Assembly (NCBI GenBank): GCA_977862235.1 | Contig: OZ374560.1 | Location: forward strand, 2,046,001-2,110,000 | Length of the DNA stretch: 64,000 bases | Origin: Dudresnaya verticillata | Taxonomy: Eukaryota | Reading direction: 5' to 3' | Part shown: one piece after another, positions 1-53,658 of the stretch | How positions within the stretch are numbered: the first letter of the stretch is position 1 | Layout: every line of letters begins with the position of its first letter | Program-made: the position numbers and the translations under genes | The notes under the pieces: model-generated | The model's database searches: none | Seen by the model: only the letters and a program-made list of their open reading frames with translations | Told to the model about the DNA's origin: nothing

Positions 1-77
1 ACGCCCGCAGATTCAAAGGACTCGCCAGTCTTTACCTCAATAATTGCCAAACCGGGAACGCCAAACAAGATACCCAG

Positions 78-641: not shown

Positions 642-819
642 GTTCAACACAAATTCAAAAACGCCCAAACGCAAGAAAGCAGACTACCGACAACCCCGCG
701 CTCCGACAAGATCCAACACGACGACGATTCCGACACAGAAGCCCCTGCTTACACGCCCCAGAAAGAGAAGTCCTCGTTTTTTCGTCGGTAGGGTCCGACC
801 AGCTCCTCTCGGACCCTAA

Positions 820-3800: not shown

Positions 3801-4241
3801 AACAAGATATTCCACGTCATAGATTGGACGAGCCACAAACAAAAACGCGTCAGCTACTCATCTTACGGTGCAGAAATTCTTGCCTGTACGGACTCCGACG
3901 ACCGCGGCTACCGCCTCCGCAACTCCATACGGTCCCTGGATCCTGTCTGCCAGATCAAGCACATCTTGCATGTCGACTCCCGTGGCCTATACGACACTAT
4001 TACAACGCTCCACGAGGGTAAGGAGTGCCGTTTACGTCAAACAGTCGAAAGAATCCGCAACAGCTTCGAAGCACGCGACCTCGACGTCCTGAGATGGATC
4101 CCTGGTTGCATAAACGTCGCAGACGCCCTAACCAAGAGGAACACAAAGAGCTTTCGCATGCTTAACGAAGTTGTAACTAGCGGGAAACTCACTATAAGCC
4201 TCGATACTGGTTACGAATTGGATAGTGCAACATGGACATAA
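820..4241 (+). pseudogene. copia pol (protease, integrase, RT, RNase H) with several premature stops
   Basis: Integrase HH..CEIC, IQADFLW, IVDTGT, FSSDPEF, TGIVERNN; RT DVKGAYLQSG and KLPYG; RNase H FSDAS, AEILA, HVDSRGL, NVADALTK; stops at 2282, 2747, ~2865, 3579. Confidence 0.9.
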
Positions 4242-24429: not shown

Positions 24430-25486
24430 ATATGCAGATTTTTATGCGGACGCAGAAGGCGCGAATGGTTTCCTGGAACCTTTACACGGAAGAGAGCTGT
24501 GTGGAAAACTTCCACAGGGCCGGGAAAAAGCCGTACAACCCGCGCAAGTACATTCGCGTTTCCCCCGACATTCTAGCTTTCCTGCCTCCCGTGCAGGAAG
24601 TCGCGGCGGGATACCCGGAAGCGAGGGAATAATATCTCAAGGAGTTGGAAGAGATACAGGCGGAGAATCTGGAAAACGACGTTCCCATCGAATGCCGCCT
24701 ATCCGAGATGGAAACTGCACGTGTCACTAATGGTGTTTATTCTCCAGGAGCTATACGAAGGCTGTCTCAGAAGGAGCGGAAATTTTCGAGGTGCATTCCG
24801 AGGAGTTCTGGGAGGGAAACTACTTTGGATCTGTTTCCTCCGGTTGGAGTGCCTCAGGCGATGAGGTGGATCTCAATCCAGATCTGCCGTCCGATGAATA
24901 TTTAGAGATTTTAGGTCGTAAGACAGATATGTCTCACGAAAACAAGTCTACTATTCCCGGTCAAGGTGGCGCTGGACCGTCTCGTGGATATGCGGGAGAT
25001 AATTCTGACTCTTCGGAAGATTCCTCCAGTTCTTCTTCGGAAGAACAGGTGCAGGAGGAGCAGGTGTACGAAATAGAATACAAGAGCAAGCATAGACCTC
25101 CCAGTGGGAAGGGCAAGTGCAAGAAATCGCGCCAGGAGAACCGATCGGGTCGTGCAGATCAGTCCGCAATGGATATATCTGATGACGACGATGACTCCGA
25201 CAAGGAGGATGCACCACTTCAGCCGAGAACCCCACAGAAGAACGTGTCGTCCCGCGCCGGCAGACACGGCGTTGATACAGCCGCAATTTCCCCGGCCTCC
25301 CTTCCAGACGAGGTGAAGCACGGAATGCCAGAAGCATTAGCGAGGGAGAGGGGACTATTGTCGGATTCAGGGGAAGGGTCGGGAGATGGACGTAACAGGG
25401 GCGAGGAGAGTGGGCAGGACAGCGATTACGTCGTGCGTGAAAAGGAATCTTCTTCTAGTTCCGAGGATGATTCCAAAAGCACTTAG
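24430..25486 (+). pseudogene. KDZ accessory gene C, acidic and low-complexity, disrupted
   Basis: ORF pieces 24192..24632, 24645..24905 and 24791..25486; divergent from the transposase. Confidence 0.5.
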
Positions 25487-26016
25487 GATACTCGAAGGGA
25501 GTGTAACTAGCTAGCTGCTAGTTCCGAGGATGCATCCTTGAATCAGGATTCCAAAAGCGATTAGAATGCTTGGATGGATTTTTGTGCAGAAGTTCCAATA
25601 GCTAGCTGCTAGCAGCGCATAAGTAATAGTGTTTGTTTGTTTGTTTATTTCGTGTGATTCGTTCTGACTTCAACTTTCCGCAGAAGCCATTACAGGGAAT
25701 ATGTTCTACATCATAAATGTTCTACATCATAAAAGTAGGAGGCGTGTTCTAGGACCATTATATCTAGGGCCATATGAGTCCCACACGCAGCGGGGGCTTT
25801 GTGCACAATCCTGTATAGAACCCGATGGGACACATATGTCTCAGAACTGTTGTAGGGTCATTGTATTCGTACAGAACATATAGATCCTGCTTTCAGGGAA
25901 GACTTCACATGCATCATAACTTCACAAACACATGGGACTTGTATGTCTTAGAATCTTTGGAAGCGTTCGCAATCCACAATGATCTACTTTGAGATGTATA
26001 TTAATGTTCTAGAACG

Positions 26017-26485
26017 TTAGTACACTTGAGAATTTTCAAGAGGCGCAGCTACTTCATGTTGCAGGCTCAGCAGCTCCTCCTTAGACATACGAGCCAGAAC
26101 TGCAGGCCCAATATTATCGCCGTTGAAGTCTGGCTTTCGACGCCCCCGGCTGGGAGTTGCTCCAGATCCGGACGGTTTCTTGATCCGCAGTGCCTGCAGC
26201 TCGGCTTCCGCCGTCTCCAACTTCCGAGCAACTTCCTCCTTCTCCAAGCGAGACTTCTCGATCTCCTGCAACATTTTTCCTTGCGGCTCCTGGTGGGATT
26301 CAGGAACAGCCCCCGGGATACAGAGAGTTGAGAAATTCGGTTCTGCAACGCTGCAGCGACGCGGCGTTCAACTTCCGCTTTCACTTTGGCCTCCAAGGCG
26401 CTATCGAAAATCGAGCCTTGCTTGTTGCCCGAGATTGGAACTGAAAAAGTACCCTTAGGGAACTTCTTCTGCAACGCAGCAATTT
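26017..26485 (-). pseudogene. 3' part of KDZ accessory gene D (coiled-coil tail), separated by the gypsy insertion
   Basis: Removing the gypsy at the AATTT TSD joins EIGNLRKQ to IAALQKKFPKG in frame. Confidence 0.75.
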
Positions 26486-27382
26486 TGTGGTGCAAGGGGA
26501 GGCGAGCCCTTTTTCGCTGAAAGCGGTCGGACTAAATACGTCGACCGACGGAGAAACCGCCACCGGCGCTCACCACCGCCGTTGGCGCGCGAACACGTCA
26601 TCGACGGCTTGCTGAGGCGCGCGCGCGCACTGCGCGCCGCGCGCCACGCGGGCACCGTACAGTGCTGGGCCGACCTGGCGCCTCGGGGCACTGTAGCGCG
26701 GATCCGGATGCGATCCGGATCCGGCATCCAGATTGCCTATCTGGATCGCCTAAGCTGTAAGGTATGCGCCTGTAAGGCTGCGGGTATCAGCATTGCTGGT
26801 CCGATCCGGATGGGATCAGGATCGGACAAGTACCAGATTAGATCTAAGGCACACGCTCTACAGTGCGCGCGCACGCGCGGCTGTAAGACACACGCGTCCA
26901 CGTGTACGTGTAAGCACCCACACAGGGGATTGTACGGCGATCTATCAGACGCGCGGCTGCATGCGACGCGTGATCTGTCAGACGCGCCTCGGGACGACAC
27001 GTGTCCCGAGTTCCCGCGCTACACGCACGCCGCCGCGCCGCCGTACTATACTTAGGTAAGCCGTCCCAGACGTCACAGTAAACGCCCAGGCAAGCCGGCC
27101 TTGGTCCAGACTTCCCCGTTCCGCACGCGCGCATTCTACCGCTGCCTACGGCTAAGCGTCTACCTCCCGTGCTTCCACGTCTACCATCGTCCTTGACGTG
27201 TTCCCTTTCTTTTTCCCTTTTCCTTCCTTTCCGCCTCGGGCGTTTACAGTCCGCCCAAGGCGTGCCCCTTTTGCTCTACCACCAAGTCGCCCACGGCGGG
27301 ACTACCTACCGCCGAGGGCGCAGCTACCCACCGAGCCCCGAACTGCTCGGCGGTCTATCGTCACTGGACGCTTTGCACCACA
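26486..27382 (+). repeat. 5' LTR
   Basis: One difference seen versus 40471-41367 (G26991/A40976). Confidence 0.97.
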
Positions 27383-27384
27383 TC

Positions 27385-27397
27385 TGGTCTCCCGACC
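27385..27397 (+). promoter_or_regulatory. primer binding site, possibly tRNA-Tyr
   Basis: TGGTCTCCCGACC 2 nt after the LTR; complement ends GGGAGACCA as in yeast tRNA-Tyr; primer identity is inferred. Confidence 0.65.
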
Positions 27398-27509
27398 TAG
27401 AAGCAGTGCTACGTTTCAACGAGTTTCTCCGTCGCGCGACGTCCGACTCTCCGTCTCTGACGTTTGTCGCGAATCGTCCACGACGTTCAAGCAACTCTAC
27501 GATTGTATC

Positions 27510-30074
27510 ATGGCCTCACGACCGCCGCCGTCGCGAGGCCCAAGTTCAAGAAGACCGTCTTCGACGCCTGGGAGTGTACCCGCGTCTGAACGGTGGTCGC
27601 TACAGCGGATGACAAAGAGGTCGGGGCGCCTCGTGAGCCCCGAGATCGCGTCGGCGTTCCCGACGCTACCCCCGGGCCACGGCCACGTAGGCTCCCGCGC
27701 GTCGCTCAACGGAGGAGAGTTACCTCCCCCGCCGACGCGCCACAACCCCGTCGTCGTCCGCGCCTCCGTCCCCGAGGGATCGGCCCTCCGCACCTACCGC
27801 TCCTACGTTGACTCGGCTGATACAGTACAAGCCGAGCAACAGGACGTCGTAGACGGAACACAAGCCGACATCGTCGCGGGACAACCGGAACTTCCGGATC
27901 AACCAACCATCCCCGTCAACGACGATCAAGCGCACTCTGCGGAGCGCAACGTCGCTGACGAACCATTGACACAAGGGGCATGTTGCCCCACTCCCCACGG
28001 CAGTGCCGGTTGTTCGCCGGCTAAGCCGAATTCGCCACGTCAAAGGGCGCAAGGGACGCCCGACCGGTCCAACGGCGAAAGCCAACCGCCAACGGCGTCA
28101 CCCTCGGCCGTCCGCGTGAGTAACTTAACGATACCACGCGAACGGATCCGAGAGGTGTGCGTCTTAGAGGACGATGCGATGCTCGCTCGGTTCGCCGGGT
28201 TGCTGGACGACAGTGTCGGAGGAATCGCAAGTCGTCTACAGACGTTGGAAGAGGATCGGAACGGCGCCCTACAAGGGCTACGCTCCGACCTCGACCGTCT
28301 ATTGACGAACCAAACCGCCCAAGGCGAGGGTACACAACCACCGCCGGCAGTAACGGTTCATTCGCATTCTGAGCTTAGCTCACGCGAACGCTTTCAGCGA
28401 CTTGCGACCCGCTTAGAGCGTCTCGAAACCGCCAAGTGGCGCAATGGTCCGCCGTCAGGTGACGAGAGCTCAGGCGAAGATCGTCACAGACGTAAGGACC
28501 GGAAGAAACGCCGTCGGAAGCTACGTCAGAGATGGAAGAAGAATCGTCATCGACGAGGGGGCTCATCCTCATCGTCTTCGGACTCGTCAAGTGACGGAGA
28601 GTCATCGGACTCTTCGTCTGAAGACGACGACTTCCCAACTCTCGGCAGTGCCGCAAGACCTCGCGGAAAGCGGTTCAAGGGGTTGAAGGAGCTACGCCCC
28701 TCCAACCCCCTTTTCGATCAGCTATTATCGCACCGGACTTACCGTCTCAAAGACGTAGGACAAAAACGCTCAGGGCGCGATACGGGCAAGGTCAAGGACA
28801 ACATTAAGCGACTGGAGCTGACCATGAAGGACGCCGCCTTCAACGGCAGCGACCCCGTCATGGTCCTCGAGTTCCTGACGCGTTACGCGGATGAAGCCGA
28901 TACGCTGGAGATGAGCGAAGCCCAAGCGTTCGTCGCGCTGCCGTACTTCTTGCGAGGTACGGCAGCCACGCAATTCCGCTCCGTCAAGTCGACGTCTTCT
29001 CGCCATCGCGGCGGGGTGTCTTCGTCCGGAGGCGGTACAGTACCTCCTCCGTACGTATGCTACGACAGCGGCGATCAGGGACACGGTCCTCGCCCTACGG
29101 TCGACTGACCAAAAGCAAGGCGAGGACGAGACGACCTATGGGATGCGGCTAGCCGGTGCGTGTATTCGTTGCGGTAACGTATATCCCGATTGGGAAAAGA
29201 TGACGCTGTACATCGACGGGTTAGACCCGTCGATCAGGTCCCTGGTCGCTCGCTTCCGAGAAGAAACGCCAAGGGCGGAGTTGTCATTTCAGCGGCTGGT
29301 CCACTTCGCACAGGACGAAGGGGATGCCAACCGCGCACGACACGGCAGAGCCGGTTCCACGTCAGCACGACGCGACTTACTGACACCAGCTCAAGCCGTA
29401 CGCACACCGCGATCCGCCATCGGCGATGCCCGAGGGGTACTGCGTCCACCGACGAGAGGCGCCAAGCCTGGAGCGCGCGCTATGATAGCGGAGTCCTCCG
29501 TCGAGTTCCGAGACGTAAGTCGCCCTGTCGATGACATGGAAACACACGCCGAAGGTGATTTGTACTTGGCAGACGAACAAGCGTCGGTGCCAACATCGGC
29601 CCTACCGACAGACAGCTTCGTCGATGACGAGGACGAAAGGGATATGGACCCTGCTCCGCCTTTGGGCGCTCGGTCGTACCAGCGCCAGGCGTCCCCTATT
29701 CCGAGTATGCTCCTCACGTCCACCGAGCAAGGCCCGGATGGCAGGACAGAGGCCCACCCCGTCAAGAAGCACGTCGGCAGCTGGTATGCCACCAATGCTA
29801 CGCCCGCGGACACATCGCGCCGGACTGCTTCCTCCGCATGAGCGACTTCATGAAGGTTATTACCAACTATGAAGGACTAACCGAAGCCGAGAAGGCTGGT
29901 GTCCCCGCTGATGCGTATGTACGTTGCAAGGAACGCGCGACTCGCGACGCTGCTCGCCGTGCTGCACGACCACAATTGCCACGGGGCGGACCCATGCCGC
30001 ACGCGGCCGAACGTCACCCGACGATGATCAACCGCTATGTAGCGCCGCAACCACCGCCGCAGGCGAAAAACTAA
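27510..30074 (+). pseudogene. gypsy gag with frameshifts
   Basis: FNGSDPVMVLEFL capsid-like motif; zinc knuckle CHQCYARGHIAPDC near 29785-29830 in the frame of 29838..30074. Confidence 0.85.
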
Positions 30075-33000
30075 CTCGGGCACCAAATCCTGACACTGGG
30101 GTGTCGCACCACGAAGAGAGGCCTAGGCCTCGGGTGCTGACACGGAAGGAGGGCCCGAAGTTAGTTACTGATGACGCCGACGGGCGGATAGAGTCGTCAC
30201 AGACGTCATAAAAACGCCCATGGCGAAGGTACCAACCCCCACAGGCGCGAGGACAGTTGTTCGTAATGGCCAAAAGGAACTATAAGGTGTACGCCGACAT
30301 CGGCGTAACCGTTAGTACCTTGGCACGTAAACTCACTGTCCTCGACACGGGGGCTGGTCCGAATTTCATTCGCATTGACGATATTCCGCTGGAAGCGCGA
30401 TCGCGCATCGTGGCAAAGAGCCTCCCCGTCATAGCCGACGCCAACAACAAGGCGATCCAGACAAGAGGCACCATCGACCTGGTCGTTCGTCTAGGTCTAG
30501 GACGGAGAGTCGTCAAGTTGGAACTGATCGTTTGCGAACGACTCGCTGCGCCGGTAATACTCGGCTGCGACTTTTGCGACCGCTTTGTCGAAGCAATATA
30601 TCCGCGAAATCGCGAGGTTGAATTGGATGACGGGACTCGTGTCCCTATAACCCGCCGCCCGCTGCGCCGACCCCCGTCGTATCCTCCGTTACCAACGGAA
30701 CAGGAATACGGCAAGGCCGATGGGAGGACGTCGCCCAAGATCCGAGTTGCCGAGCGCGCGATCATCCCGCCTAAGGCGCAGCAATGGGTATCGGTGACCA
30801 CCGAGCGCGCCGGCATCATCACAATGTAACCGTTCGGAACGCTGTACGACAAACAAGGTCTGGCCGTTACGAACGGGATTGCTCAAGTGGAGCCGCTAAA
30901 AGCGTTTCGCATTCTGGTTGCCAACTTCTCTCCCCGCCCGCAGGCGTTAGCCAAGGGCCAAGTCGTCGCGACGGTGTTACCACATCCGACAGCAGTGTTC
31001 CCCAGTCACGTAAGTCTAGCCGATGTTTTGGGCCTCACCGAGGAACAAGCCGAGGAAGAGAAGGCAAACCAAGATTTCCGTTTTCAAACGAATGATAACA
31101 CTGCGGCACAGCCGGATACTTTCACGAAGTCTATCAAGGAAACCACTGCCAAACCTCCGTCAGTAGACGATTTAGACCTTGGACATCTCCCCGCCGAGCA
31201 TCAAGGCCGACTCAAGGAGATGTTGCGCAAGTATTCGTCTATGTGGGACGGGTCGTTGGGAGAAATCTCAACCACGGAGCACTACATCGACTTGCTTCCC
31301 GGTTCTAGACCGATATCGTCCCCGCCCTACCGAGCGGGGCCGAAGCAAAGACAACTCGCTCAAGCGGAAGTGGACCGCATGCTGCGTCAAGGGGTTATCG
31401 AACCCGCACAATCGCCGTGGGCGTCACCTGTGGTCTTCGCCCCCAAGAAGGACGGGACCCTCCGCTTTTGCGTGGACTACCGTCGTTTAAACGCAGTAAC
31501 CATACGGGACACGTACCCGCTGCCGCGTATCGACGAATGCATCGACAGTCTAGGGGAAGCAAACGTCTTCACCACCCTAGACTGTAACAGTGGGTACTGG
31601 AAAGTGCCGATCAATCCGCGAGACCGCGATAAGACTGCGTTCACGTGCCACGCCGGACTGTTCCGCTATAAGCGTATGCTATTCGGTCTCACGAACGCAC
31701 CCGCTACGTTTCAACGAACGTTGGACATCCTGCTCGCTGGTTACAAATGGCGTTCGTGCCTCGTCTACCTCGATGACGTAATAATCTTCTCCAGCGACAT
31801 CGACAGCCACTTCCGTCATGTTGACGAGATCCTTTCGACATTGCACCGCGCCGGGGTGACTCTGAAGTTAACCAAGTGTGACTTCTTCACCCCGACCGTC
31901 AACTACTTAGGACACGTCATACGTCCAGGACGGTTAGAAGTTGACCGAACTGTCACTGCCGCGCTACGCGAAGCCAAGCATCCACGGGATCAGAAGGAGC
32001 TACGGAGTTTTCTCGGTCTTTGTAACGTCTACAGACGGTTCGTCTCGCGATACGCGCATGTCGCTGCCCCCCTCAACAAGTTGCTGAGGAAGGAACAGGA
32101 CTTCCGGTTACAACCGTTTGATGAGACACAAGCCAAAGCGTTCAGTACGCTCGTCGAGGCCGTGACTCATCCGCCTATACTGGCGCTACCACAGCAGGGT
32201 CTCCCCTATTCCGTCGATTGTGACGCAAGCGAGTATCAGGTCGGCTGCGCTCTCTTTCAGACGCAGCCCGACGGGGAACGTAAGCCGCTCGGCTTCTGGT
32301 CCCGCTCGCTCACCGCTCCGGAGCGTAACTACTCGGTCTCCGAAAAGGAGTGCCTCGCAGTAGTATGGTCCGTCATGACGCTGCGACCTTACCTCCAGAT
32401 GGAGTCGTTCACAGTCCATACGGACCATTCGTCGTTGAGGTGGCTGATGGAAATCAGCGACCCCTCTGGACGGTTAATGCGGTGACGCCTTCGCCTTTCC
32501 GAGTTCGACTTTGTCGTGAAGTACAAAAAGGGGTACCTGAATACCCAGGCAGATGCCCTTTGGCGTCTATAGACGAAGGGAGAAACCGTCGAGCCCATTG
32601 ACGATGATATACCGTGCTACCACGGAAGCTACGTCGAAGACGGCCATCAAACGTCACAGGACGATCTGTCAGACGCCGAAGGCGAGGTCGACTTTGCCGA
32701 ACGAGAGTTCGAAGAGTTCGACCAAGTGTTGATCAACAACACGCCACCGGCGGATGCGGTACTCCTTCGTCAAGTGACGCATGAGGAGTTGGTACACGCC
32801 CAAGGCGATGACAAGTACTGTAACGATGTCAAGAAACGTCTGGATGACGGAATCATATTGCCGTTCGCAACGGACGAACAGGGCCTGTTGGTCCGAACAG
32901 TGGAAGTCCGTCCGCAAGTGGTCGTACCCTCCGCGTTACGCGCTCGCTTACTCCACCTCCGGCACCACGCCAAGTTGGCAGGGCACCCAGGGGGGCGTAA

Positions 33001-34798
33001 GTTGTATCATACGCTTCGACGCGAATACTATTGGCCATCGATGCCAGTGGACTGCTATGCGACCGTCCGCAACTGCGTAACTTGCGCTAAGAATCGCGTA
33101 TTACTACGAAAGAACACCAAGCAATTGAAGTTGTTCCCGGCAACCGAGCCTCTCGAGTTTGTATCGATCGACATCCTGGGCGAATTCATACGCACGAAGC
33201 GAGGAAACAAGTTCCTACTCGTCATTGTGGACCGCTTCTCGAAGCTGGCCCGGACGGTCCCACTGCGTAGTATTACGGCATTGGAGATCGCTAAAGCGTT
33301 TGTACGACATTGGGTCTTCGTGTACGGTCCTCCCAAGAAACTGTTGTCCGACAACGGACCACAGTTTGTGGCTAAGCTGTTTCAGGATATCTGCCGTCTG
33401 TTGGGATTGGAGAACCTCTTCACCACGACGTACCATCCGCAATGCAATGGCCAGGTAGAACGATTTAATCGAACTATCCTGGCCTCGCTGCGTCACTACG
33501 TTGCGGATCATCCGAGAGACTGGGACCTGTTCACGGATGGCTTGACGTTCGCATACAACACACAGTTGCATTCGTCTACGCATCTCGCTCCGTTTGAATT
33601 GGTGCTGTCGAAGCCACCACGACCATTGTCGCTCGAAGCGGAACCGTCGCTCGAAAGCGTACCCACCGCGGGGCAATACTACACCAAGTGGCGAACCTGG
33701 CTGGCCGCACTGATGGGAACCGCTAAAGCGTCGTTAGAGAAAACTCAAGCACGTTACAAACGAAACTTCGATACCCGATTAAGGAAATCGAAGGAAACAA
33801 TCGCCGTAGGCGACTTCGTATTCGTACGTAAGGAATACTTCGCCCGAGGCTAGAGCACGGATCGCGCAGAGCGTAAGCATAAGCTGGCGCCAGTGGCGGA
33901 CGGACCATACCGGGTAACTGACGTTGATAACGAGACAGTAACCGTCGACAAGGGACGTGATGAGCGGGAACGTTTGTCCCGAGACCGCGTGGTCTGGGCG
34001 CCGACCCCACCGGGTCAGGCGTCCCCTCCAATCGTCGTACCACCAGGCCCGCCTGAGGAGCAGGACGCAGTCGCCCCCACGTCACAAGACGAAGGGACAA
34101 CTACCCCAAGCACGCCACCAGCGGACCCGGAGGGGGACGCAGAGACTTCGCATATTGCGGGAGATCCGCAAGAGCGTACGATCACAGCGTCACGCAGTCG
34201 TGGGTTGGCAGAGCTTTCGCCCTTCGCCGCCGATCCCAACGACCGCGCTTCGCAATCCTTCCCCAACGACGACAGTACCCCAGGGGTTCGCACCCGTTTG
34301 GAACACGTCACTACGGCACCGCCGAATGAGAACAATGACTCCGCTGAAAGCGCATCCGATAACGAAGACGTTATCCGTGCAAGCACGAAGCAAGGCGCTA
34401 AAAGCGATGAACTCGTCTCAAGACGCAACAATCCACTGACCGCTGATCGAGCGTCCGAGGCCCAAGGCCAACACCTTCGGCGATCAACTCGTCGAGTACG
34501 CTTCGCCGAGCCGGAACAGACGCCCATCACGCAACGAGACAAACCGCCAAAGGCGCTGGACAGGCCCGCGTCCAAGCCGAACGCTGTGAGCGGAACAGAA
34601 TACGTGATCGAACGCATAGAGTCGCACGCATACGCGGGTGATGATGAGATCCTCTACCGCGTCAAGTGGTTTGGATGCCCCTCTTCAGCGAACACCTGGG
34701 AGCCAGTCTCCAGTTTGCCGCGCTCCCACGTCACACGATACCACCGTCTCAAACGTATGCAGCTGCCGCCAAACGTCGACGACGCGCAACGCGGCTAA
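30071..34798 (+). pseudogene. gypsy pol: protease, RT, RNase H, integrase, chromodomain; five in-frame stops
   Basis: LDTGAG; RFCVDYRRLN; YLDD; CDASEY; GHPG..CVTC; SIDILG; SDNGPQF; NGQVERFN; YRVKWFG..NTWEP; stops at 30209, 30827, 32483, 32568, 33851. Confidence 0.95.
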
Positions 34799-36068
34799 CC
34801 CTAGTCCGGAAATACCGCTGGAAGCGAATGGACGGACGATCGAGCCCACGTGCTCGACCTACGATCGACAACGGCGCGGAAGCTCAACCCATGCCCTGTG
34901 GACGCGGTCGAAGGAGCGACAGCGCCAACCACGCGTGCACGCCATGGACGAACGGGGACGCAAGTCGTTGCGTCATAGACAGCCTCGCGCCGCCACCTCG
35001 CAGCAGCCCCCATACGGAACTTCTAGATGGGTGCGCTGTTGACAGTGGATCCAGATCGCAAATCGAGATCCGCCGCCGGCGACCCTCGGGTAATATGAGG
35101 CAGTAATTGGCCCAATTTTAATTTCCAAACACAGCAGCGCGCACCACCCCGCCGTCAACGCAGGACGAACGCAATTATGCCAAGTGGCTGAGCAGGTGCT
35201 ACGAGCCCCAGCGACGACAGGCGCAAAGTGGCAGCCCACGACAACCGTCTCCGACGTCGAGACGTGCCTCGCCCCACGGCCAAGGCCCTGGGACCGCCAC
35301 CCTGCCGGCCACGGTCTCGCGCGCAAGACCCGTCGAACGTCTCCGACGTAACTCGCCGAGAAGGGGCGCACTGACAAACCCACCCCCGAAGGGGGGGAAG
35401 GTGGTCGAAGACGCAGTTGCTGCAGGTTCCGTGCACGACGCGCCAACAAATCGCCAACGACTCCGCCGCTGCCTGCAGCCGCCGCGCCGCAGTCGCGTGA
35501 GCGCGACAACTCTACCCTACCCCCAAGGAGGCACGTCGAAGACGAAGGTGGCGGCAGCGCCAAGGCGTCAAAACCTACCTCACCGCCTTCGCGACCCTCG
35601 TAGAGGACGCCGGCAAACCACGCCCAAGGCGCAGTGCGACACACGCATTACAAAAACGCTAAGTAAGCGTAAATACGACAACGCCACGCGTGAACCACGA
35701 AGAACAACGCTACTACAGCGGACCCTACTGGACAAACACAGCCAAGTGCCAACGCACGGCCAAGGCTAAAGGCATCAAACGACAGCGCTACTGTAGCGGA
35801 CAACCAAGAACACGACGCAAAGTCGAAAGTGGATCACAAGGTTACACCCTAAGGCCAACGCGAAACGCGACACATAAAGACGCTGACAATGGCCGAAGTT
35901 TACTGGGCTAAAGACAAATGGGGAAAACCCCTCGCCCTAGCGATTGACCACTACAGGTACATTAATCGTCAAAGACGAAGGAGAATACTCCGCTCGTCGC
36001 TCCAGCAAAGGAGCCGAAGGGGCAACACAATACGCACCTCGCGTCCGCTACCCGTTCCTGAAACGACA

Positions 36069-38372
36069 TCAAGACTCCTTCGTCGCAGACGAATCGGCTG
36101 GCACGTCCCCAGCGCCTTCGGCGGACTTACGCAACGCCTCTTCGTAGAGGTCTTCCTCCGTCGTTGACGGCACACTCACGGCAGGAGCCGGGGCGGATCG
36201 CAAAGGCCTTGCCACCGCAACTGCCGGAGCGGCTGCAACAGGCGCCGCAGGCGAAGTGGGAGACTCATCAATCGCCTTGGGCGTCGTCGCGACAATATCC
36301 GCCAAAGGCGATGAAGCAATAACACCCGCCACAGGCGCAGAGCCTAAGCTACCATTCGCCTTAGGCGCGGGCACAGCCCCATCCGCTTTAAGCGTACTCA
36401 ACGACTCGTCGACCGCCTTTGGCGTCAATTCAGAAACCGCCTTGGTTGGCGTCGCTTCTTCACTCGCCTTCGGCGTTGTTAATCCGACACCCGTCAATGA
36501 CGCAGGAGCACTTAGCCCCTTTTGAACCGTCGACGACGCTACAGTGGCATTCGCCTCGCTCGCCGCAGGCGGTACAGTCATATTCACGTCCTTAGACGCC
36601 GGACCATTCGCCTTAGGCGACGAAGGCTTCTCCGCCACACCGTCCTTCGACGCAGAACCTACGACACTAGTCGACTTCGGTGCGGGTCCACCCTGAGGTG
36701 GGACCGTAGCCGACAAAGCTTGGCTCATCCACTCAGTGGGTGAGCCGCTCAAACCGCTAGTAGCGACGCCTGCCGCCTGCAATAACGCAAGCACGGTGCG
36801 GCGCTGTTCTTCGGTCCAAACCGGCACCGGAGCTGGACCCCCAGAACCGTCTGCGACGCTTGATGCTTCGCCTTGAGGCGTCACGGTCGGCGGAGCCGGC
36901 TCAAGTATTGGCGTCACCATAACGGCATCGCCATCACCGTCAGCGACGGGAGCCGCAAGGTCCAGAGGAGCAACAGCTGGCAGGCCAGCTGGCACTCCAC
37001 CGCCACCGACAGCGCCTCCGGGCAAAGCCGAAGACGCGGGCACAGGCTCGGCAGTCGACTCAACCGCCATAGGCGTAGCAATGTCCGTCCCAGACGGGTT
37101 CTCCGGTCCGCCATCGGCGTTAAACGCATCCTCCTCGGCCATTAAGGCGCTCAGATGCGGAGGAAAATCACCGACAAAGTCGCAGCTCTTACGCAAACCA
37201 CGCGGGTGATTACCTGGGGTGAAGCGGTCCGTTTTGCGATGGCGCTCCGCAATGTTCTTCGTCGTACGACGCTTAGTCCACGGGTTATAATGGACCCAAT
37301 CGCCACAGGCGGAGTGAGTCCGACTCATCGCGAATCGCGGACGGTTCGCCTTACGGCGGTTGTTTGCATACGGCACCATTGCCGGGTCGTTCCAGTCAAT
37401 CTCATTCGCCACCGCGCGCAGGTTCGAGAACTCCTCGGCGTTCCGGGACCCGCCAAATATTTCGACCAAGTCGAGGCTGCCAAGCTGAGCCACCACACGC
37501 GGGGGCAAGTGGTACATACGGAAGGTGTCATACACCTCCCATAACCACGCATACGCCACATTGGCGACCCACTCCGTGTAAAACACGATCCAATGCCTGG
37601 AATAGGGGTCGGTCATCAGCTCGGAACCCAGATACGTAACACACGGAGGAAGCTCTACGGAGAAACCCTCGCATATCTCAAACTCGCGCCACACTGGCGG
37701 TACCTTCACGAAACAAAACGGCAACTTACTACGCTCAATGCGGTCAACCTGCATGTCCTGGTAAGGCACGAATACGCCCTTTCGGCGACGCGTCTCGCAC
37801 TCCCACCGGATACAACGCTCCCAAAAGAACGTACCCGTACGATGCAGGTAACGAAAATCCGCATTCAAGCGTACGCCTAAGAGGTAGGCCTCTCCCAACA
37901 CACGAGGCTCAATCGACACGCTCACATGTTTGAGCGACAACGTCCCAAGAAGAGCACCATATTCGGCTTCGCCGGCTGTGCGGTATTGTCCCGCATCATA
38001 ATTGAACAGGGGCGGCGTTAACGTCGACCCCGGATAACGCGTGAAGCGACGATACACGTCTGAGACGAACTGCGCGTGGACGTCCGCACGCGACTGTCCC
38101 GCTCGCACCCAAAGCCATTCTGCAGGAACGGCACAGAGTGACTTCCATTCCAACGTCCAGACGACGCCGAGGGGCAAGCCCCCCGGCAAGAAACCGCTAG
38201 TAGCGTAATGAGCAACTAATTCTTCCTCGCGCAAGGCCTCTTGGTCGAACCAGGGGGCCCGCGCGAAGAAGTGCGCGTGATCGCGAGGGTTCTTTCCGAC
38301 GAAGTCGACCGGCGAAGCGTACACCGGCGCAGCCGAAGATGCTGCCACCTGCATGCCATTGAACATCGGCAT
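36069..38372 (-). CDS. intact 767-aa antisense ORF of the gypsy element, unknown function
   Basis: Open ATG-to-stop ORF between pol and the PPT; aromatic-rich N-terminal ~400 aa, Ala/Pro/Ser-rich tail. Confidence 0.85.
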   Translation of the reverse strand: MPMFNGMQVAASSAAPVYASPVDFVGKNPRDHAHFFARAPWFDQEALREEELVAHYATSGFLPGGLPLGVVWTLEWKSLCAVPAEWLWVRAGQSRADVHAQFVSDVYRRFTRYPGSTLTPPLFNYDAGQYRTAGEAEYGALLGTLSLKHVSVSIEPRVLGEAYLLGVRLNADFRYLHRTGTFFWERCIRWECETRRRKGVFVPYQDMQVDRIERSKLPFCFVKVPPVWREFEICEGFSVELPPCVTYLGSELMTDPYSRHWIVFYTEWVANVAYAWLWEVYDTFRMYHLPPRVVAQLGSLDLVEIFGGSRNAEEFSNLRAVANEIDWNDPAMVPYANNRRKANRPRFAMSRTHSACGDWVHYNPWTKRRTTKNIAERHRKTDRFTPGNHPRGLRKSCDFVGDFPPHLSALMAEEDAFNADGGPENPSGTDIATPMAVESTAEPVPASSALPGGAVGGGGVPAGLPAVAPLDLAAPVADGDGDAVMVTPILEPAPPTVTPQGEASSVADGSGGPAPVPVWTEEQRRTVLALLQAAGVATSGLSGSPTEWMSQALSATVPPQGGPAPKSTSVVGSASKDGVAEKPSSPKANGPASKDVNMTVPPAASEANATVASSTVQKGLSAPASLTGVGLTTPKASEEATPTKAVSELTPKAVDESLSTLKADGAVPAPKANGSLGSAPVAGVIASSPLADIVATTPKAIDESPTSPAAPVAAAPAVAVARPLRSAPAPAVSVPSTTEEDLYEEALRKSAEGAGDVPADSSATKES

Positions 38373-38397
38373 GACGTCAACGACGAGAATATGTTAA

Positions 38398-38757
38398 CGC
38401 CAAGGGCGATGCTTGTACGAACGTCAAAGATGACTCGTGTCCTGCGCCACTGGCGAAAGCTTCAAGAAGCGTGCGTCGAAGACGATTACTGTTGCAACGC
38501 CTTAGGCGAGGAAAGGAAACCCACGTCAACGACGTTCAGCTGCTGCGCCAACGGCGATGCCAAAAGCAAACGACGTCGAAGACGACTACTGTTGCGACGC
38601 CTTAGGCGAGAGAAGGAAACCCGCGTCAACGACGTTTGACTGCTGCGCCAATGGCGATGCCGAAGGCAAACGACGTCGACGACGATTAAGTTGCAACGCC
38701 CCAGGCGAGGGATATACGATAGACGTCAACGACGGAGCTCGTTATGCGCCACAGGCG
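38398..38757. repeat. tandem array with ~50-bp periodicity (~100-bp higher-order unit) carrying eight CGCC-N3-GGCG sites
   Basis: Sites at 38398, 38445, 38498, 38546, 38598, 38646, 38697, 38747. Confidence 0.9.
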
Positions 38758-38966
38758 GTGAGGTCGGGGCAGCGTACGCAGCCGCACGAGTACGCAAACG
38801 CAACAAGAGCGGAGTTCTTACGGCACAGCCGAGGTCGCAGTCGCACGCGGCGCACCAATACAATACGCGAAGGCGCGGGGACTCGCTCGCAAGGCGCGGA
38901 AGTCGGCAGGGACGCAACGGCAGAACGCACGGCAGCAGGTTGACGGTCGGGTCGTGTTCGCGTTTT

Positions 38967-39008
38967 GGAGGGGGGTCGTGTGGTGCAAGGGGAGGCGAGC
39001 CCTTTTTC
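38967..39008 (+). other. polypurine tract plus first ~30 bp of the original 3' LTR
   Basis: GGAGGGGGG then TGTGGTGCAAGGGGAGGCGAGCCCTTTTTC starting at 38979. Confidence 0.9.
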
Positions 39009-41367
39009 CTCCAGTTCTTCTTCGGAAGAACAGGTGCAGGAGGAGCAGGTGTACGAAATAGAATACAAGAGCAAGCATAGGCCTCCCAGTGGGAAGGGCA
39101 AGTCCAAGAAATCGCGCCAGGAGAACCGATCGGGTCGTGCAGATCAGTCCGCAATGGATATATCTGATGACGACGATGACTCCGACAAGGAGGATGCACC
39201 ACTTCAGCCGAGAACCCCACAGAAGAACGTGTCGTCCCGCGCCGGCAGACACGGCGTTGCTACAGCCGCAATTTCCCCGGCCTCCCTTCCAGACGAGGTG
39301 AAGCACGGAATGCCAGAAGCATTAGCGAGGGAGAGGGGACTATTGTCGGATTCAGGGGAAGGGTCGGGAGATGGACGTAACAGGGGCGAGGAGAGTGGGC
39401 AGGACAGCGATTACGTCGTGCGTGAAAAGGAATCTTCTTCTAGTTCCGAGGATGATTCCAAAAGCACTTAGGATACTCGAAGGGAGTGTAACTAGCTAGC
39501 TGCTAGTTCCGAGGATGCATCCTTGAATCAGGATTCCAAAAGCGATTAGAATGCTTGGATGGATTTTTGTGCAGAAGTTCCAATAGCTAGCTGCTAGCAG
39601 CGCATAAGTAATAGTGTTTGTTTGTTTGTTTATTTCGTGTGATTCGTTCTGACTTCAACTTTCCGCAGAAGCCATTACAGGGAATATGTTCTACATCATA
39701 AATGTTCTACATCATAAAAGTAGGAGGCGTGTTCTAGGACCATTATATCTAGGGCCATATGAGTCCCACACGCAGCGGGGGCTTTGTGCACAATCCTGTA
39801 TAGAACCCGATGGGACACATATGTCTCAGAACTGTTGTAGGGTCATTGTATTCGTACAGAACATATAGATCCTGCTTTCAGGGAAGACTTCACATGCATC
39901 ATAACTTCACAAACACATGGGACTTGTATGTCTTAGAATCTTTGGAAGCGTTCGCAATCCACAATGATCTACTTTGAGATGTATATTAATGTTCTAGAAC
40001 GTTAGTACACTTGAGAATTTTCAAGAGGCGCAGCTACTTCATGTTGCAGGCTCAGCAGCTCCTCCTTAGACATACGAGCCAGAACTGCAGGCCCAATATT
40101 ATCGCCGTTGAAGTCTGGCTTTCGACGCCCCCGGCTGGGAGTTGCTCCAGATCCGGACGGTTTCTTGATCCGCAGTGCCTGCAGCTCGGCTTCCGCCGTC
40201 TCCAACTTCCGAGCAACTTCCTCCTTCTCCAAGCGAGACTTCTCGATCTCCTGCAACATTTTTCCTTGCGGCTCCTGGTGGGATTCAGGAACAGCCCCCG
40301 GGATACAGAGAGTTGAGAAATTCGGTTCTGCAACGCTGCAGCGACGCGGCGTTCAACTTCCGCTTTCACTTTGGCCTCCAAGGCGCTATCGAAAATCGAG
40401 CCTTGCTTGTTGCCCGAGATTGGAACTGAAAAAGTACCCTTAGGGAACTTCTTCTGCAACGCAGCAATTTTGTGGTGCAAGGGGAGGCGAGCCCTTTTTC
40501 GCTGAAAGCGGTCGGACTAAATACGTCGACCGACGGAGAAACCGCCACCGGCGCTCACCACCGCCGTTGGCGCGCGAACACGTCATCGACGGCTTGCTGA
40601 GGCGCGCGCGCGCACTGCGCGCCGCGCGCCACGCGGGCACCGTACAGTGCTGGGCCGACCTGGCGCCTCGGGGCACTGTAGCGCGGATCCGGATGCGATC
40701 CGGATCCGGCATCCAGATTGCCTATCTGGATCGCCTAAGCTGTAAGGTATGCGCCTGTAAGGCTGCGGGTATCAGCATTGCTGGTCCGATCCGGATGGGA
40801 TCAGGATCGGACAAGTACCAGATTAGATCTAAGGCACACGCTCTACAGTGCGCGCGCACGCGCGGCTGTAAGACACACGCGTCCACGTGTACGTGTAAGC
40901 ACCCACACAGGGGATTGTACGGCGATCTATCAGACGCGCGGCTGCATGCGACGCGTGATCTGTCAGACGCGCCTCAGGACGACACGTGTCCCGAGTTCCC
41001 GCGCTACACGCACGCCGCCGCGCCGCCGTACTATACTTAGGTAAGCCGTCCCAGACGTCACAGTAAACGCCCAGGCAAGCCGGCCTTGGTCCAGACTTCC
41101 CCGTTCCGCACGCGCGCATTCTACCGCTGCCTACGGCTAAGCGTCTACCTCCCGTGCTTCCACGTCTACCATCGTCCTTGACGTGTTCCCTTTCTTTTTC
41201 CCTTTTCCTTCCTTTCCGCCTCGGGCGTTTACAGTCCGCCCAAGGCGTGCCCCTTTTGCTCTACCACCAAGTCGCCCACGGCGGGACTACCTACCGCCGA
41301 GGGCGCAGCTACCCACCGAGCCCCGAACTGCTCGGCGGTCTATCGTCACTGGACGCTTTGCACCACA
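39006..41367 (+). repeat. direct duplication of 25021-27382 (upstream flank plus LTR)
   Basis: Constant offset of 13985; four substitutions seen; TTC microhomology at the junction. Confidence 0.97.
40471..41367 (+). repeat. complete right LTR
   Basis: Matches 26486-27382 and is followed by the AATTT TSD. Confidence 0.97.
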
Positions 41368-47168: not shown

Positions 47169-48824
47169 ATGCCTGCTGACGTCAGCCTCATTGAGCTTCC
47201 GCAAGAAGTTCTCCATTTCATTGTCTCCAGATGCAGCGTTCCTGTCTTGCCGCGTGCAGGCCCCATTACGCTTGCCAGCGTGCGTCAGGTGTGCAACAAC
47301 CCCCCGCATCAGCTGCTTCCCGTTCTCCAATCCCATCCTACTCTCACCAACGTAGTCAAGAACAAGCTGAAAGACATAGACACACTGTCCTCATCTGTAG
47401 GCTTCCCTAAAATGACTCACTGGCTAGGGCTACTCGGCCCGCATGTGACTGGTATCTCGCTCTCAGAACCGTTTGGACCGGTCCAAGATCAACCATTCCC
47501 ACCTTATCGTCAAGGGTTTCCATCCATGTCCGTCCTCGAGTCCATTAGCCGCAATATGGTGTGCTTGCAAGTTCTTGATATCCAGGGAGTGCCGTTCGCT
47601 ACTGCGTCCGTAACTGTGAAGGAAAGACTGGAGAGGGCTTTATCTCGTGTGCTCGAGTACAGCGCACCTAGTCTACAGCAACTGGCCTTCAAGGCCGATC
47701 AGGTTTGCATTCGGTCTCTAAGAAAGTTCGAGATGCCTTGTTTGGAGGTACTGGCTATCAAGAGCGGGGATAAGAGTCTTGCTGAGGGACTGCAAGCTAT
47801 ATGGGAAGTCCAGAAAGAAGTTCGCGAGATACGCATAGAGGGGCAATCACTGACAGAGGCGGTGATGAGATCAATTGGAGACTCTCACTTGCTACAGCAG
47901 GTGGAGAGACTCCGAGTAATTTCAGTGAGAAGCATTGCGCCCATTCGCGGTTTCGAGGCATTCTTCAGAAAGATGACGAGACTGAAGGTGGTATTTTGGT
48001 ATGGGCTCATTCATAGTGAACCTGTGGAGGCTTTGCTGAACGGATGTCCTAACTTGCAGGCACTCCATGTTTGGGAATGGGAAACATTTCGTCGTGAACC
48101 TGCCGAGCACGACCTGTTCCTTCACTTCGATGAACTAGGCTCTCCAGATACGTTTTTGCAACAGGCAGGGTCCAGACTGATTTCCTTCCAGCAGAAATTC
48201 TACATTAGTGCCGAGAGGAGTTTGGCGATTGCCACACATTCTCAACAGCTACAAGAGCTCTCTGTGAAGGTTGACAGGGAAAACATGAAGGACTTGATAT
48301 TAATCACAGAGAAATGTAGGAGACTGCGTCGCTTAGAACTTACGCGTGCGAACCGTGGCGCTGAGTTCGAAAATTCGGAGCTTCCGTGCTGGAAGGTTTT
48401 GGGGGACGTTCTAGACGCTGCTTCGGAGAAGCTAAGCGTCCTAGTTCTGCACTATCAAGTAACGGTATTTTGCCCAGAGCAGGAAGAAGACGCAATGGTT
48501 GACAGGTTCTGCCACTTCTTTAAGAGCATGGGGACGCACGCGAAGAGCATTAATTTCTCGATTCCGACGAACACGAATGACTACGGTATCTTACTTCCAC
48601 GATTCACGAAACTCTTGGATTGTGCTTTGGAGCACAATTCAAACCTGGAGGAGCTGACCTTGGATTTCGGTCAACTGGTGGAACCGTGGTACTGGTACAA
48701 TCTCACGGAGACCGAGAGGAGGCCGATTGTTTTAGGCTTACGCTTGGCTATAGAGAAAGCTCATCGAAGGATGGCGAGCCCTCTGTGGCTGGACTTGAAG
48801 AAATTGGAGACTATTGTGATGTGA
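47169..48824 (+). CDS. F-box/LRR (RNI-like) protein, paralog 1
   Basis: N-terminal LIELPQEVLHFI; LRR-like units GCPNLQALHV, KCRRLRRLEL; shares DYG.L.P and HNSNLEEL with the neighbours. Confidence 0.75.
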   Translation: MPADVSLIELPQEVLHFIVSRCSVPVLPRAGPITLASVRQVCNNPPHQLLPVLQSHPTLTNVVKNKLKDIDTLSSSVGFPKMTHWLGLLGPHVTGISLSEPFGPVQDQPFPPYRQGFPSMSVLESISRNMVCLQVLDIQGVPFATASVTVKERLERALSRVLEYSAPSLQQLAFKADQVCIRSLRKFEMPCLEVLAIKSGDKSLAEGLQAIWEVQKEVREIRIEGQSLTEAVMRSIGDSHLLQQVERLRVISVRSIAPIRGFEAFFRKMTRLKVVFWYGLIHSEPVEALLNGCPNLQALHVWEWETFRREPAEHDLFLHFDELGSPDTFLQQAGSRLISFQQKFYISAERSLAIATHSQQLQELSVKVDRENMKDLILITEKCRRLRRLELTRANRGAEFENSELPCWKVLGDVLDAASEKLSVLVLHYQVTVFCPEQEEDAMVDRFCHFFKSMGTHAKSINFSIPTNTNDYGILLPRFTKLLDCALEHNSNLEELTLDFGQLVEPWYWYNLTETERRPIVLGLRLAIEKAHRRMASPLWLDLKKLETIVM

Positions 48825-51158
48825 CATTTCTCGATCTTGCGTCCAAGTCCTTTTCAGATCAGGACACGATGCTGATGTGCGAACCGGTGAAAATGGTGCC
48901 CCTATTTCTTATCCCGAGAATGCGTCCTTGGGACGAGCTACGCTGCCTGCACCGACACCGAATTGCATGAGATGATTACAGATTCGTAGCCAAGTTTGCG
49001 TGCAACGGAAAAGAAAGTTGATTTTGAGCAATCTTAGCCTAGGAGTGAGATTGTTACTTTGGTTGCGGCGGTTCAAGAAAGCGGCTTCGACATAGCAATG
49101 AACAGGAGAATTTGTAACGCGAGATGCCCGGGATTGCCATGTCTGTTCTGAAGATCGAAAGCGCGTAGGTTGGGATCATTAATGTAAGAGTGAAATTCTG
49201 TGGCGACGAAGTAGTTGTCGAGTTCTTCCGTAAAGAAAAGAAGCGCCCCGATGAGAATGACAGTAATAGATACGGTAGCTGCCCGGGGATCAGGATGAGT
49301 ATTTTCGTTAGAAGCTGGGCGATGAAACAAGGTCACCCCCGTCCCATGTCCGTGATAGTGTGATGGGAAGAAATGGTAGGACGCCCGACATTTATTCAAC
49401 ATCAACGGTCGCTGAGCGGCGAGAGTTAGATCACTGCCTCGACGCGCCCTTTCAAAATTACTACGTGCAGCAGATCCTGTGGCAGCTACAACGGGATGTG
49501 CAATATTTCAAGGACGTACAACACCGCTGCCGTGTAGACGAAGAATGTCTCTTCCGAGACCTCAACGCACCGCATGGTGCCACATGTTATTACCAAAGAG
49601 CGCTAGCATGATTCTGCTTCCTATTGAGATAGAAGAACCGTGCCAATGCTAATGTACATGGTAACGTGGCTTCCCCCATCCGTTCAAGACCATCCTGGTA
49701 CATTTTTCTGGGACAAGACCCGCAAAGAATTCTCGAGCTGTCACCTTACGAGAAATTGATTTTGTGGGACTGGCGGTCCCCGAAACAACCACTGTTCCAA
49801 TCTGCTCGGCATTAAATTAAGGCACAGCAACCTAATATGCTCCAACATTCCTGACGTTTCAAACTCCGCAGGAGTGCTTGATTGCAATAGCACACTACCG
49901 GGAGGCCGTGATTGTGGCAGACTCCTTCCGAGAAAAACATTTTATCCGAAACGCTGATATCTTGGGCCCTACGCATTTACAACTACTTGGTGTTCGTTTT
50001 TCTGGTCAGCTCGACATTATTCTTAGCAAGCGTATCATATACAGTCGTACTCTCGGTAGATGAAGCCAGTTCGTAGCTTTACCAGAACAGCTACAGCTAA
50101 GAACAGACGGTAATTTCGAAGTTAGAATGCATTGATCTGCAGGGGTGCTGTGCTGGTTTAGTGACGCAATTTTCCATTACGATCAACCACTTCCGATTTA
50201 AGCTTTTCCTCTAACACAGAGCGCAACGAGAAGTCCAATGTATCCTCAAACAGTCAACAGTTGTGACTCAACATGGGGCGTGCTGCCATGTCGCAGGATA
50301 ATCGGCTTTACGTTCTGAGCTTCCACGCAATGGAAGACAAGAGCAGTACCAAGCTACTCTACCCAGCAAGTCCTTCCTCAATACTCAGTTACATAGCGAC
50401 CAATATCCCGCAGTACCTGGTTGGCACCGGGTCCCTTGAACAAAAGATCCACTCCTTGCTGGTCCTTGCATGCCCTGGATGCCTGGAATGTCTCGCGTTG
50501 TCTATCGTCATTGGCTGTAAGCAACCACGAGATTTATCTTGCAACAATTGCTCCCTCAAGTTGCAGAGTGGTCTAGATAAAACCTGAGTTGGCAACCAAA
50601 GGTGCCCTCCCTCTTCTCTCATGGAAGGCCCAACACGTCGTTCCGCAGCGCTTAGTCGTGTCGGGCTCGCGGGGCTAGCAGAGCTTTGCAGAGAATTCCG
50701 CCTCCACCCCTTCTGGCGGACAATCGTCCCTGTGCTCCGCAATCCACATCCTGTCCAGCAGCTGAGTTCTGAAAGTCTAAAGCAGTAACAAGTGCTGTGC
50801 GTCCTCAATCGGGACTCACACGAATATGACCTCAGCCAAATTCGTGAGTATCCAAATGAAGTAGTTCCCATTTTTTGCCTTTGTGGAAGCTTTGATGTCC
50901 AGAACAGCATAAATTACCTCACACATTGTGGTGCTGAGAGAGATAGACAAGCAAAACTGCAGAACCGACGCCTCAACTTTTGTCATCTGCGGATAATGTT
51001 CCCCGTCTCTCTTGCAGAAGGTGTATCGCACGCGGAGGACAAACAGCGCTGCAGCTCAAAAGGAAAGTGAGGAAAGACGCAGCAGACGGAATACAGCTAC
51101 AGAAAGAAAAGGAAATAGATCAGGTCGCCAGGTCGTCTCTCCGGATCACCGTTCGGGG

Positions 51159-52874: not shown

Positions 52875-53572
52875 TCCGACGCAATCCCCGTTTCCAAGCA
52901 ATACCATGTACAACTAGCAATGGGGATACGCTCAGTCCGCCAACAGACACAGGTGAAGGGACCTGCAAGCGGCAGTTGGAAGGAAGCCAGACGAAAGCGG
53001 GGCGGGTGAGAAGCAGCTGCGGTGGAACGGCGATGACCGGACTGGTCGGCCGGTGTCAATCTGCCAGCGGCAAATCGTGGCGGGCCCTTGCTGCCTTCAG
53101 CGCTGGGAAAGTTGGCAGGGCGTGGCCGTTGGGCGGCGGGAGGGGCTGCCGGCACGGCCTGCGCCCGCACACGTAGACGCGACGCGCAAGGTGAGTCGGC
53201 GACGCGACGCACCTGTGGCCGGTGGTGGTGCGGAGTGGCGGCGTGTCGCGCGGACGGCGCGCGGCATGCGGCGCCGTCAGCGGCGCAGATCGCGCAAATC
53301 GCGGCGCCAATGGCGGCGGCGCGCGTGTACCGCACAAATCGCAATCTCACACTCTCTGCTGCGACGCTGCGACGAATGGCAGTCGCTGTCTGACCGAAGC
53401 AAAAAAAAAGAGAAGAGAACAGCTCCCGACGACTGAAAATGCCCACCGCCGCTTTTCTCCATCACCCCATTGCCTCACCTTCCCGTCACCTTCACCGCGA
53501 CCGCGACTCCCACCGTCCCTCCGTCCGTCCCTCCCGCCGTCCCTTCCACCCTCACTCCCCTCACCACCCCCC

Positions 53573-53584
53573 CACACACGCACA

Positions 53585-53651
<67 letters not shown>

Positions 53652-53657
53652 TCACAC
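53573..53657. repeat. (CA)n microsatellite directly before the ATG of paralog 3
   Basis: Direct reading. Confidence 0.95.
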
Positions 53658-53658
53658 G

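What the first reader, a model, noticed from the sequence alone, without database searches (positions are those of the whole stretch)
36069..38372. Intact 767-aa antisense ORF in a gypsy element whose gag-pol is broken
The ORF has an aromatic-rich, probably folded N-terminal half with no motif I recognise, and a disordered tail whose repeated (T/S/A)PKA peptides are encoded by the CGCC-N3-GGCG sites. Antisense ORFs are known in plant Tat-lineage elements (Retand, Grande), but I see no similarity to them. It stays open while pol has five stops; on length alone only about two stops would be expected, so this is weak evidence of selection.
Basis: partly seen in the sequence, partly recalled or inferred. 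Interest (0 to 1): 0.7.

Follow-up and report, generated by a model that had tools for sequence, protein, structure and literature searches.

The report
Seaweed retrotransposon's conserved antisense accessory gene
This is a protein-coding gene carried backwards behind pol in at least three families of gypsy retrotransposons, likely of red algae; its 375-residue core is predicted to fold well, belongs to a large unnamed protein family and likely helps the element keep itself expressed, though the copy here sits in a broken element and may be intact by luck.

Summary
The ORF is real: 767 codons antisense to gag-pol, between pol and the 3' LTR of a chromodomain-bearing gypsy element (0 of 1000 shuffles give such a frame). 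Residues 18-395 form a conserved domain. It has 463 relative clusters (50%-identity level), including four Gracilariopsis chorda hypothetical proteins, and a confident AlphaFold model (pLDDT 91.7). No Pfam family names it. Two other gypsy families from metagenomes carry a homologous gene in the same antisense place, and in the larger one it is under purifying selection (dN/dS 0.21-0.48 between subfamilies). So it is a long-standing accessory gene of a gypsy lineage, placed like Retand/Grande antisense ORFs but lacking their TRP28 domain. Its staying open while pol has five stops is not significant (P 0.10-0.19), and 21 of 26 copies in the distant family carry lesions, so host domestication is unsupported. 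The PKA repeats come from an element-wide DNA palindrome (137 sites vs 12 expected). The tail is not wholly disordered: it holds a second shared motif of about 35 residues. Function is inferred only; most likely a nucleic-acid or chromatin-acting regulator that helps the element.

The parts
36069..38372 (-). antisense accessory ORF, 767 aa
37188..38321 (-). conserved core domain, aa 18-395, predicted mostly helical
   Evidence: 463 relative clusters; alignment; AlphaFold pLDDT 91.7, pTM 0.90
36690..36806 (-). second shared motif in the tail, aa ~523-561, likely two helices
   Evidence: 45 of 75 tails match a profile seeded from 41 of them; SAP/HeH likeness inconclusive
38474..38710 (.). 2.4 tandem copies of a 100-bp unit upstream of the ORF, rich in the palindrome; candidate antisense promoter region (inferred)
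26486..27382 (+). 5' LTR, 897 bp, TG...CA, preceded by AATTT target site
27385..27397 (+). primer-binding site (TGG start); tRNA-Tyr is my recalled reading, not tested
   Evidence: sequence
27510..30075 (+). gag with CCHC knuckle, broken by two frame changes
30074..34798 (+). pol: protease (weak), RT, RNase H, integrase, C-terminal chromodomain; five in-frame stops
38967..38975 (+). polypurine tract
   Evidence: sequence
38979..39008 (+). first 30 bp of the 3' LTR, joined by a 3-bp microhomology to a copy of the left flank
39006..40470 (+). duplicate of left host flank 25021-26485 (3 differences in 1465 bp)
40471..41367 (+). full LTR (1 difference from the 5' LTR), followed by AATTT target site

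Best explanation
The ORF is a conserved accessory gene of chromodomain-bearing gypsy retrotransposons, likely of red algae, set antisense between pol and the 3' LTR; its protein likely acts in trans on the element's own DNA, RNA or chromatin to keep the element expressed against host silencing. Shown: a coding frame, a large family, the same position in two further element families, purifying selection. Predicted: one compact soluble domain with a flexible tail and a short helical motif. Inferred by analogy: its own antisense transcript from the repeat region near the 3' LTR, nuclear action, counter-silencing. This copy is a passenger in a dead element.
For: Coding. Family: 463 clusters at E<=1e-3, 50 at <=1e-30; median pairwise identity 34% among 91 non-redundant rows; the only named cluster among 20 looked up is four G. 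chorda hypothetical proteins on four contigs. Position: 41 of 78 pattern-selected metagenome loci encode the domain (27 distinct copies); 30 of the 41 show gypsy pol, all 30 on the opposite strand downstream of the gene; LTRs flank both genes in L042 and L075. Homology beyond the search pattern: 31 of 41 versus 0 of 37 loci; profile-profile 98%. A third family, not pattern-selected, in L027 has the same layout (95%). Selection: core dN/dS 0.21-0.48 in the 21 of 26 comparisons with dS>0.35, pol 0.08-0.29 in 22. Model: pLDDT 91.7, pTM 0.90. Protein traits: 11 mostly-basic and 20 mostly-aromatic conserved columns, about 10% Arg, no membrane segment. Analogy: Retand TRP28 predicted to bind DNA and Grande gene23 nuclear with its own promoter (PMC11963269, PMC7264820); VANC anti-silencing (PMC12844716); accessory genes that may modify their own transposon in red algae (10.1101/2025.02.11.637652).
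Against: No function is shown. The core is not net basic in most members (net charge -14 to +12). The palindromes that would be natural targets are not enriched in the distant family, so a fixed protein-palindrome pairing is not general. The N half (aa 18-224) is not detected in the main distant family (0 of 41). The dN/dS comparisons share one reference and are not independent; three of five close pairs reach 0.60-0.69. L055 has 4.9 kb downstream without pol. The DNA context of the 463 protein relatives, G. chorda included, could not be read. Host identity is inferred.
Confidence: 0.45

Rival explanations
1. The core is an enzyme of unrecognised type that modifies nucleic acid or chromatin proteins for the element, like the AlkB-type or PAG2/PAG3 accessory genes.
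For: Near-invariant acidic and basic residues (D126, R131, E135, E191, R195, E232, D282, D358) in a 375-residue domain; precedents in PMC12786077 and 10.1101/2025.02.11.637652.
Against: No conserved His or Cys; no Pfam, NCBIfam or PHROG enzyme family matches; conserved charged residues may be structural.
Confidence: 0.2
2. The protein is a particle, nuclear-import or cell-to-cell movement factor, an env substitute.
For: Position where env-like genes sit; folded domain plus long flexible tail; basic clusters at aa 195-198, 339-341 and 367-369.
Against: Antisense rather than sense; highest 19-residue hydropathy 1.39, so no membrane segment.
Confidence: 0.15
3. The gene restrains its own element (copy-number control), through the protein or through antisense RNA pairing with the genomic RNA.
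For: Convergent antisense layout would give overlapping RNA; this role is discussed in PMC7264820 and PMC12786077.
Against: A large, deeply conserved folded domain is more than antisense RNA needs; no test here.
Confidence: 0.12
4. This particular copy has been kept by the host (domesticated) after gag-pol died.
For: 0 lesions versus 7 in gag-pol; deviation at conserved columns is ordinary for the family (rank index 22 and 36 of 54).
Against: P 0.10-0.19; 5 of 26 copies of the distant family are also lesion-free over the aligned part, and lesion rates are 2.9 versus 4.2 per 1000 codons for the gene and pol.
Confidence: 0.06
5. The ORF is a chance frame produced by GC-rich, palindrome-laden DNA.
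For: The tail's repeated peptides do follow the DNA palindromes.
Against: 0 of 1000 simulations, 463 relative clusters, dN/dS below 0.5, confident model.
Confidence: 0.01

Closest known systems
Antisense 3' additional ORFs (aORF-3R) of plant Retand/Tat elements: Grande gene23, RIRE2, Retand ORF4 with TRP28 (PF04195) (PMC7264820, PMC11963269)
   Same: Antisense gene between pol and the 3' LTR, long pol-to-LTR region, tandem repeats nearby, conserved across families, function unknown.
   Different: No TRP28 match; the host element has a chromodomain (Retand is a non-chromovirus lineage); TRP28 is reported only in flowering plants; the domain here is about 375 aa.
brtn antisense ORF of Botrytis Boty/BcGypsy1 (PMC7264820; passage in 10.1101/2021.04.13.439636)
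   Same: Antisense extra ORF in a non-plant gypsy element.
   Different: Sequence not on hand, not compared; fungal host.
VANC anti-silencing proteins of VANDAL DNA transposons (passage in PMC12844716)
   Same: Element-borne accessory protein in an element full of a short family-specific motif and tandem repeats.
   Different: DNA transposon, not LTR element; binding and demethylation are shown for VANC and untested here; the motif here is a strict palindrome with variable arms.
Plavaka accessory genes PAG1-3 of red algal DNA transposons (10.1101/2025.02.11.637652)
   Same: Mobile accessory genes in red algal elements; PAG1 also has no known domain; PAG3 lies beside inverted repeats.
   Different: Described for DNA transposons. 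No methylase or SET Pfam match here.

Membership tests
Ty3/gypsy LTR retrotransposon | LTRs with TG...CA ends, 5-bp target-site duplication, PBS and PPT | tested here: met
   the 3' end is rearranged by a local duplication
Ty3/gypsy LTR retrotransposon | pol order protease-RT-RNase H-integrase | tested here: met
   (protease only weak, E 0.095)
Chromovirus clade | chromodomain at the integrase C-terminus | tested here: met
   PF00385 E 1.2e-8
Chromovirus clade | RT phylogeny inside chromoviruses | not tested
   no reference RT set on hand; unrelated chromodomain gypsy lineages exist in algae (PMC12477816)
Retand-type antisense ORF (aORF-3R) | antisense, between pol and 3' LTR, kept across copies and families | tested here: met
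Retand-type antisense ORF (aORF-3R) | TRP28 domain (PF04195) | tested here: not met
   no match for the ORF or 49 of 49 relatives scanned
Retand-type antisense ORF (aORF-3R) | carried by a non-chromovirus Retand element of flowering plants | tested here: not met
   chromodomain present; the named relatives are red algal
Retand-type antisense ORF (aORF-3R) | own antisense transcript and nuclear protein | not testable with these tools
   needs RNA data and localisation
env-like ORF | sense orientation and transmembrane segment | tested here: not met
   antisense; maximum 19-residue hydropathy 1.39
VANC-like anti-silencing factor | binds a motif of its own element and lowers silencing marks | not testable with these tools
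   a candidate motif exists here but is not enriched in the distant family
SAP/HeH helical DNA-binding motif (tail) | profile match to SAP/HeH clan | tested here: inconclusive
   2 of 10 motifs give HeH or Ish1 at E 0.16-0.2, far below cut-off; likeness to SAP is my recollection
Any solved fold in the PDB | structural match to the core model | tested here: inconclusive
   see Tried and rejected
Plavaka PAG1 | sequence homology | not testable with these tools
   sequence only in closed bioRxiv supplements

The most novel reading that the evidence does not exclude
Red algal gypsy elements have carried, since before the main seaweed lineages split, their own anti-silencing protein of a new fold. 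In this family it recognises the 137 strict CG-xy-N3-y'x'-CG palindromes written into every part of the element, synonymous codons included, making it the first retrotransposon counterpart of the VANC system.
Probability: 0.12. Interest if true: 0.88.

Novelty: new variant of a known kind. Interest (0 to 1): 0.62.

Why it matters
What antisense extra genes of LTR retrotransposons do is an open question (PMC7264820, PMC11963269). This gives a second, apparently independent case outside flowering plants, with a large diverse family, defined domain limits, invariant residues and a confident model, so structure and function can be tested directly. It also explains a class of red algal 'hypothetical proteins' as likely transposon genes, and ties in with the barely studied silencing of transposons in seaweeds. 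The element-wide palindrome is a separate unexplained signal.

Full report
Observation. The frame 36069-38372 on the minus strand runs 767 codons from ATG to stop. The other five frames hold 16-35 stops. None of 1000 Markov simulations at each of orders 1-4 of the 4.2-kb region between pol and the LTR reached 767 codons (median about 225), and base use differs by codon position in both halves (p 1.6e-9 and 2e-34) but not in the adjoining spacer. Pol has five in-frame stops and gag two frame changes. The expected number of stops in the ORF at pol's rate is 2.0-2.25, so zero has P 0.10-0.14, or 0.16-0.19 conditionally; counting all seven lesions by length gives 0.146.

The element. It is a gypsy element with an 897-bp 5' LTR (26486-27382), AATTT target-site duplication, PBS, gag with a CCHC knuckle, pol with RT, RNase H, integrase and a C-terminal chromodomain (PF00385, E 1.2e-8), a 1.27-kb spacer, the antisense ORF, a 100-bp tandem repeat and a PPT. 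The 3' end is rearranged: 30 bp of LTR, then a copy of 1465 bp of left host flank, then a full LTR. The LTRs differ at 1 site and the flank copies at 3. The near-identity therefore likely dates a local duplication (or an assembly error), not the insertion, which reconciles it with the decayed gag-pol (inference).

The family. A full HMMER search with residues 1-410 found 463 clusters at E<=1e-3, 183 at 1e-10 and 50 at 1e-30. The best 150 were listed; matches span about aa 18-395 at 25-40% identity. Of 20 clusters looked up, one carries names: four hypothetical proteins of the red alga Gracilariopsis chorda on four contigs; the rest are unnamed ENA, JGI, Logan or NCBI records. A red algal host for the window is thus inferred, not shown. 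No Pfam family matched the ORF or the core of 49 relatives. AlphaFold with 150 sequences gave pLDDT 91.7 and pTM 0.90, ordered from about aa 12 to 395, mostly helical. The fold searches are told under Tried and rejected. Conserved columns include 11 mostly basic, 11 mostly acidic and 20 mostly aromatic ones, no His or Cys; net charge of the core ranges from -14 to +12; there is no membrane segment. Relatives share the plan of a core plus variable low-complexity ends. 45 of 75 tails carry a motif of about 35 residues (aa 523-561 here); the profile was seeded from 41 of them and near-identical cluster members are included, so the count is partly by construction. Its likeness to SAP/HeH motifs is my recollection and was not confirmed.

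Position in other elements. A degenerate pattern from the conserved core, present in 39 of 169 proteins then held, matched 78 metagenome loci. 41 encode the domain, as 27 distinct copies. Because the pattern is part of the match, I rescored with a profile that omits it: 31 of 41 versus 0 of 37 other loci for aa 252-396, but 0 of 41 for aa 18-224. Profile-profile comparison spans aa 118-372 at 98%. In 30 of the 41 loci gypsy pol is seen, in all 30 on the opposite strand downstream of the gene; 10 of the other 11 have under 1.7 kb downstream, and L055 has 4.9 kb without pol. LTRs enclose both genes in L042 and L075, and this pol ends in a chromodomain-like stretch by eye. L027 holds a further element, not selected by the pattern, with a 670-aa antisense homolog 254 bp beyond its chromodomain match. 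The three pols are 41-46% identical, so the layout is old. Control scans gave 0 of 16 prokaryote and 0 of 20 viral loci with the domain.

Selection. Against reference L068, core dN/dS is 0.21-0.48 in the 21 of 26 comparisons with dS above 0.35, and 0.18-0.69 in the five close pairs; pol is 0.08-0.29 in 22 comparisons. The comparisons share a reference and are not independent. Lesions run at 2.9 per 1000 codons in the gene and 4.2 in pol; 21 of 26 copies have at least one in the gene. The gene is thus selected while elements are active and decays after insertion, like pol. These are copies of a distant family; true sisters of the window element could not be read. The window protein departs from conserved columns no more than its relatives.

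The palindromes. CGCC-N3-GGCG occurs 43 times in 12.5 kb of element and 4 times in 49 kb outside. It is one of a class: 137 of 271 CG-N7-CG sites are perfect palindromes, against 12 expected and 25 of 278 outside. They exceed all 300 synonymous-codon shuffles in gag, pol, core and tail, but not in two host genes. G-U pairs and mixed arms are not enriched, which points to a DNA-level symmetric feature. The PKA repeats are this signal read in one frame. The distant family lacks the enrichment, so it is not a fixed partner of the domain.

Mechanism. Shown: coding gene, family, position, purifying selection. Predicted: one soluble folded domain, flexible tail, short helical motif. Inferred: an antisense transcript from the repeat region near the 3' LTR, as for Grande gene23, and action in trans on the element's nucleic acid or chromatin that favours its expression. 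I put 0.95 on the gene-family reading and about 0.45 on the whole statement. Rivals are an unrecognised enzyme (0.2), a particle or movement factor (0.15), self-restraint (0.12), domestication of this copy (0.06) and chance (0.01).

Comparison with what is known. It sits like the antisense 3' ORFs of Retand, Grande, RIRE2 and Boty, but fails membership of the Retand type (no TRP28, chromodomain host). VANC and the red algal PAG genes are functional analogies only. Papers seen: PMC7264820, main text; PMC11963269, first part and passages; 10.1101/2025.02.11.637652, passages and sections 8 and 21, supplements closed and possibly relevant for PAG1 and a curated gypsy family; passages only of PMC12477816, PMC8282616, 10.1101/2021.04.13.439636, PMC12844716 and PMC12786077. 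Ten searches listed no description of this gene; Repbase and subscription journals were not searched.

Verdict. A new variant of a known kind: a previously unnamed, old and diverse antisense accessory gene family of likely red algal gypsy elements, ready for structural and functional tests. Interest 0.62.

Noticed in passing
window 26486-39008 and 40471-41367: 137 perfect 11-bp palindromes CG-xy-N3-y'x'-CG (12 expected) through LTR, gag, pol and the ORF, kept at synonymous level, with no G-U excess and almost no mixed arms; cause unexplained and possibly a finding in its own right.
   Followed up: partly
window 38979-41367: The 3' LTR is cut after 30 bp and joined by a 3-bp microhomology to a 1465-bp copy of the left flank plus a full LTR; a recent repair-type duplication or an assembly artefact.
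   Followed up: partly
window 16069-16857: Diverged relative of the LTR (about 70-78% identity in aligned parts) with the same palindromes, next to an integrase-like fragment by eye.
   Followed up: partly
window 30055-30075: Gag ends just after G AAA AAC with pol in the -1 frame, preceded by a CGCC-N3-GGCG site; candidate programmed frameshift (recalled pattern, untested).
   Followed up: no
window 1-4241: Broken copia-like element by eye (integrase before RT), without palindrome enrichment.
   Followed up: no
window 21169-23744 (-): Broken ORFs that look like a KDZ/CxC-type transposase by recollection; the gypsy element may have inserted beside or into it.
   Followed up: no
window 47169-48824, 50997-52874, 53437-55326: Three tandem paralog-like genes of 550-630 aa with a weak F-box-like start and repeat-like body.
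   Followed up: no
L027:443-7397: A separate chromodomain gypsy family with a 670-aa antisense homolog, lying next to a copy of the main distant family.
   Followed up: partly
L055: Copy of the gene 99% identical to L054/L058 but with no pol in 4.9 kb downstream; possibly a deleted or non-autonomous derivative.
   Followed up: no
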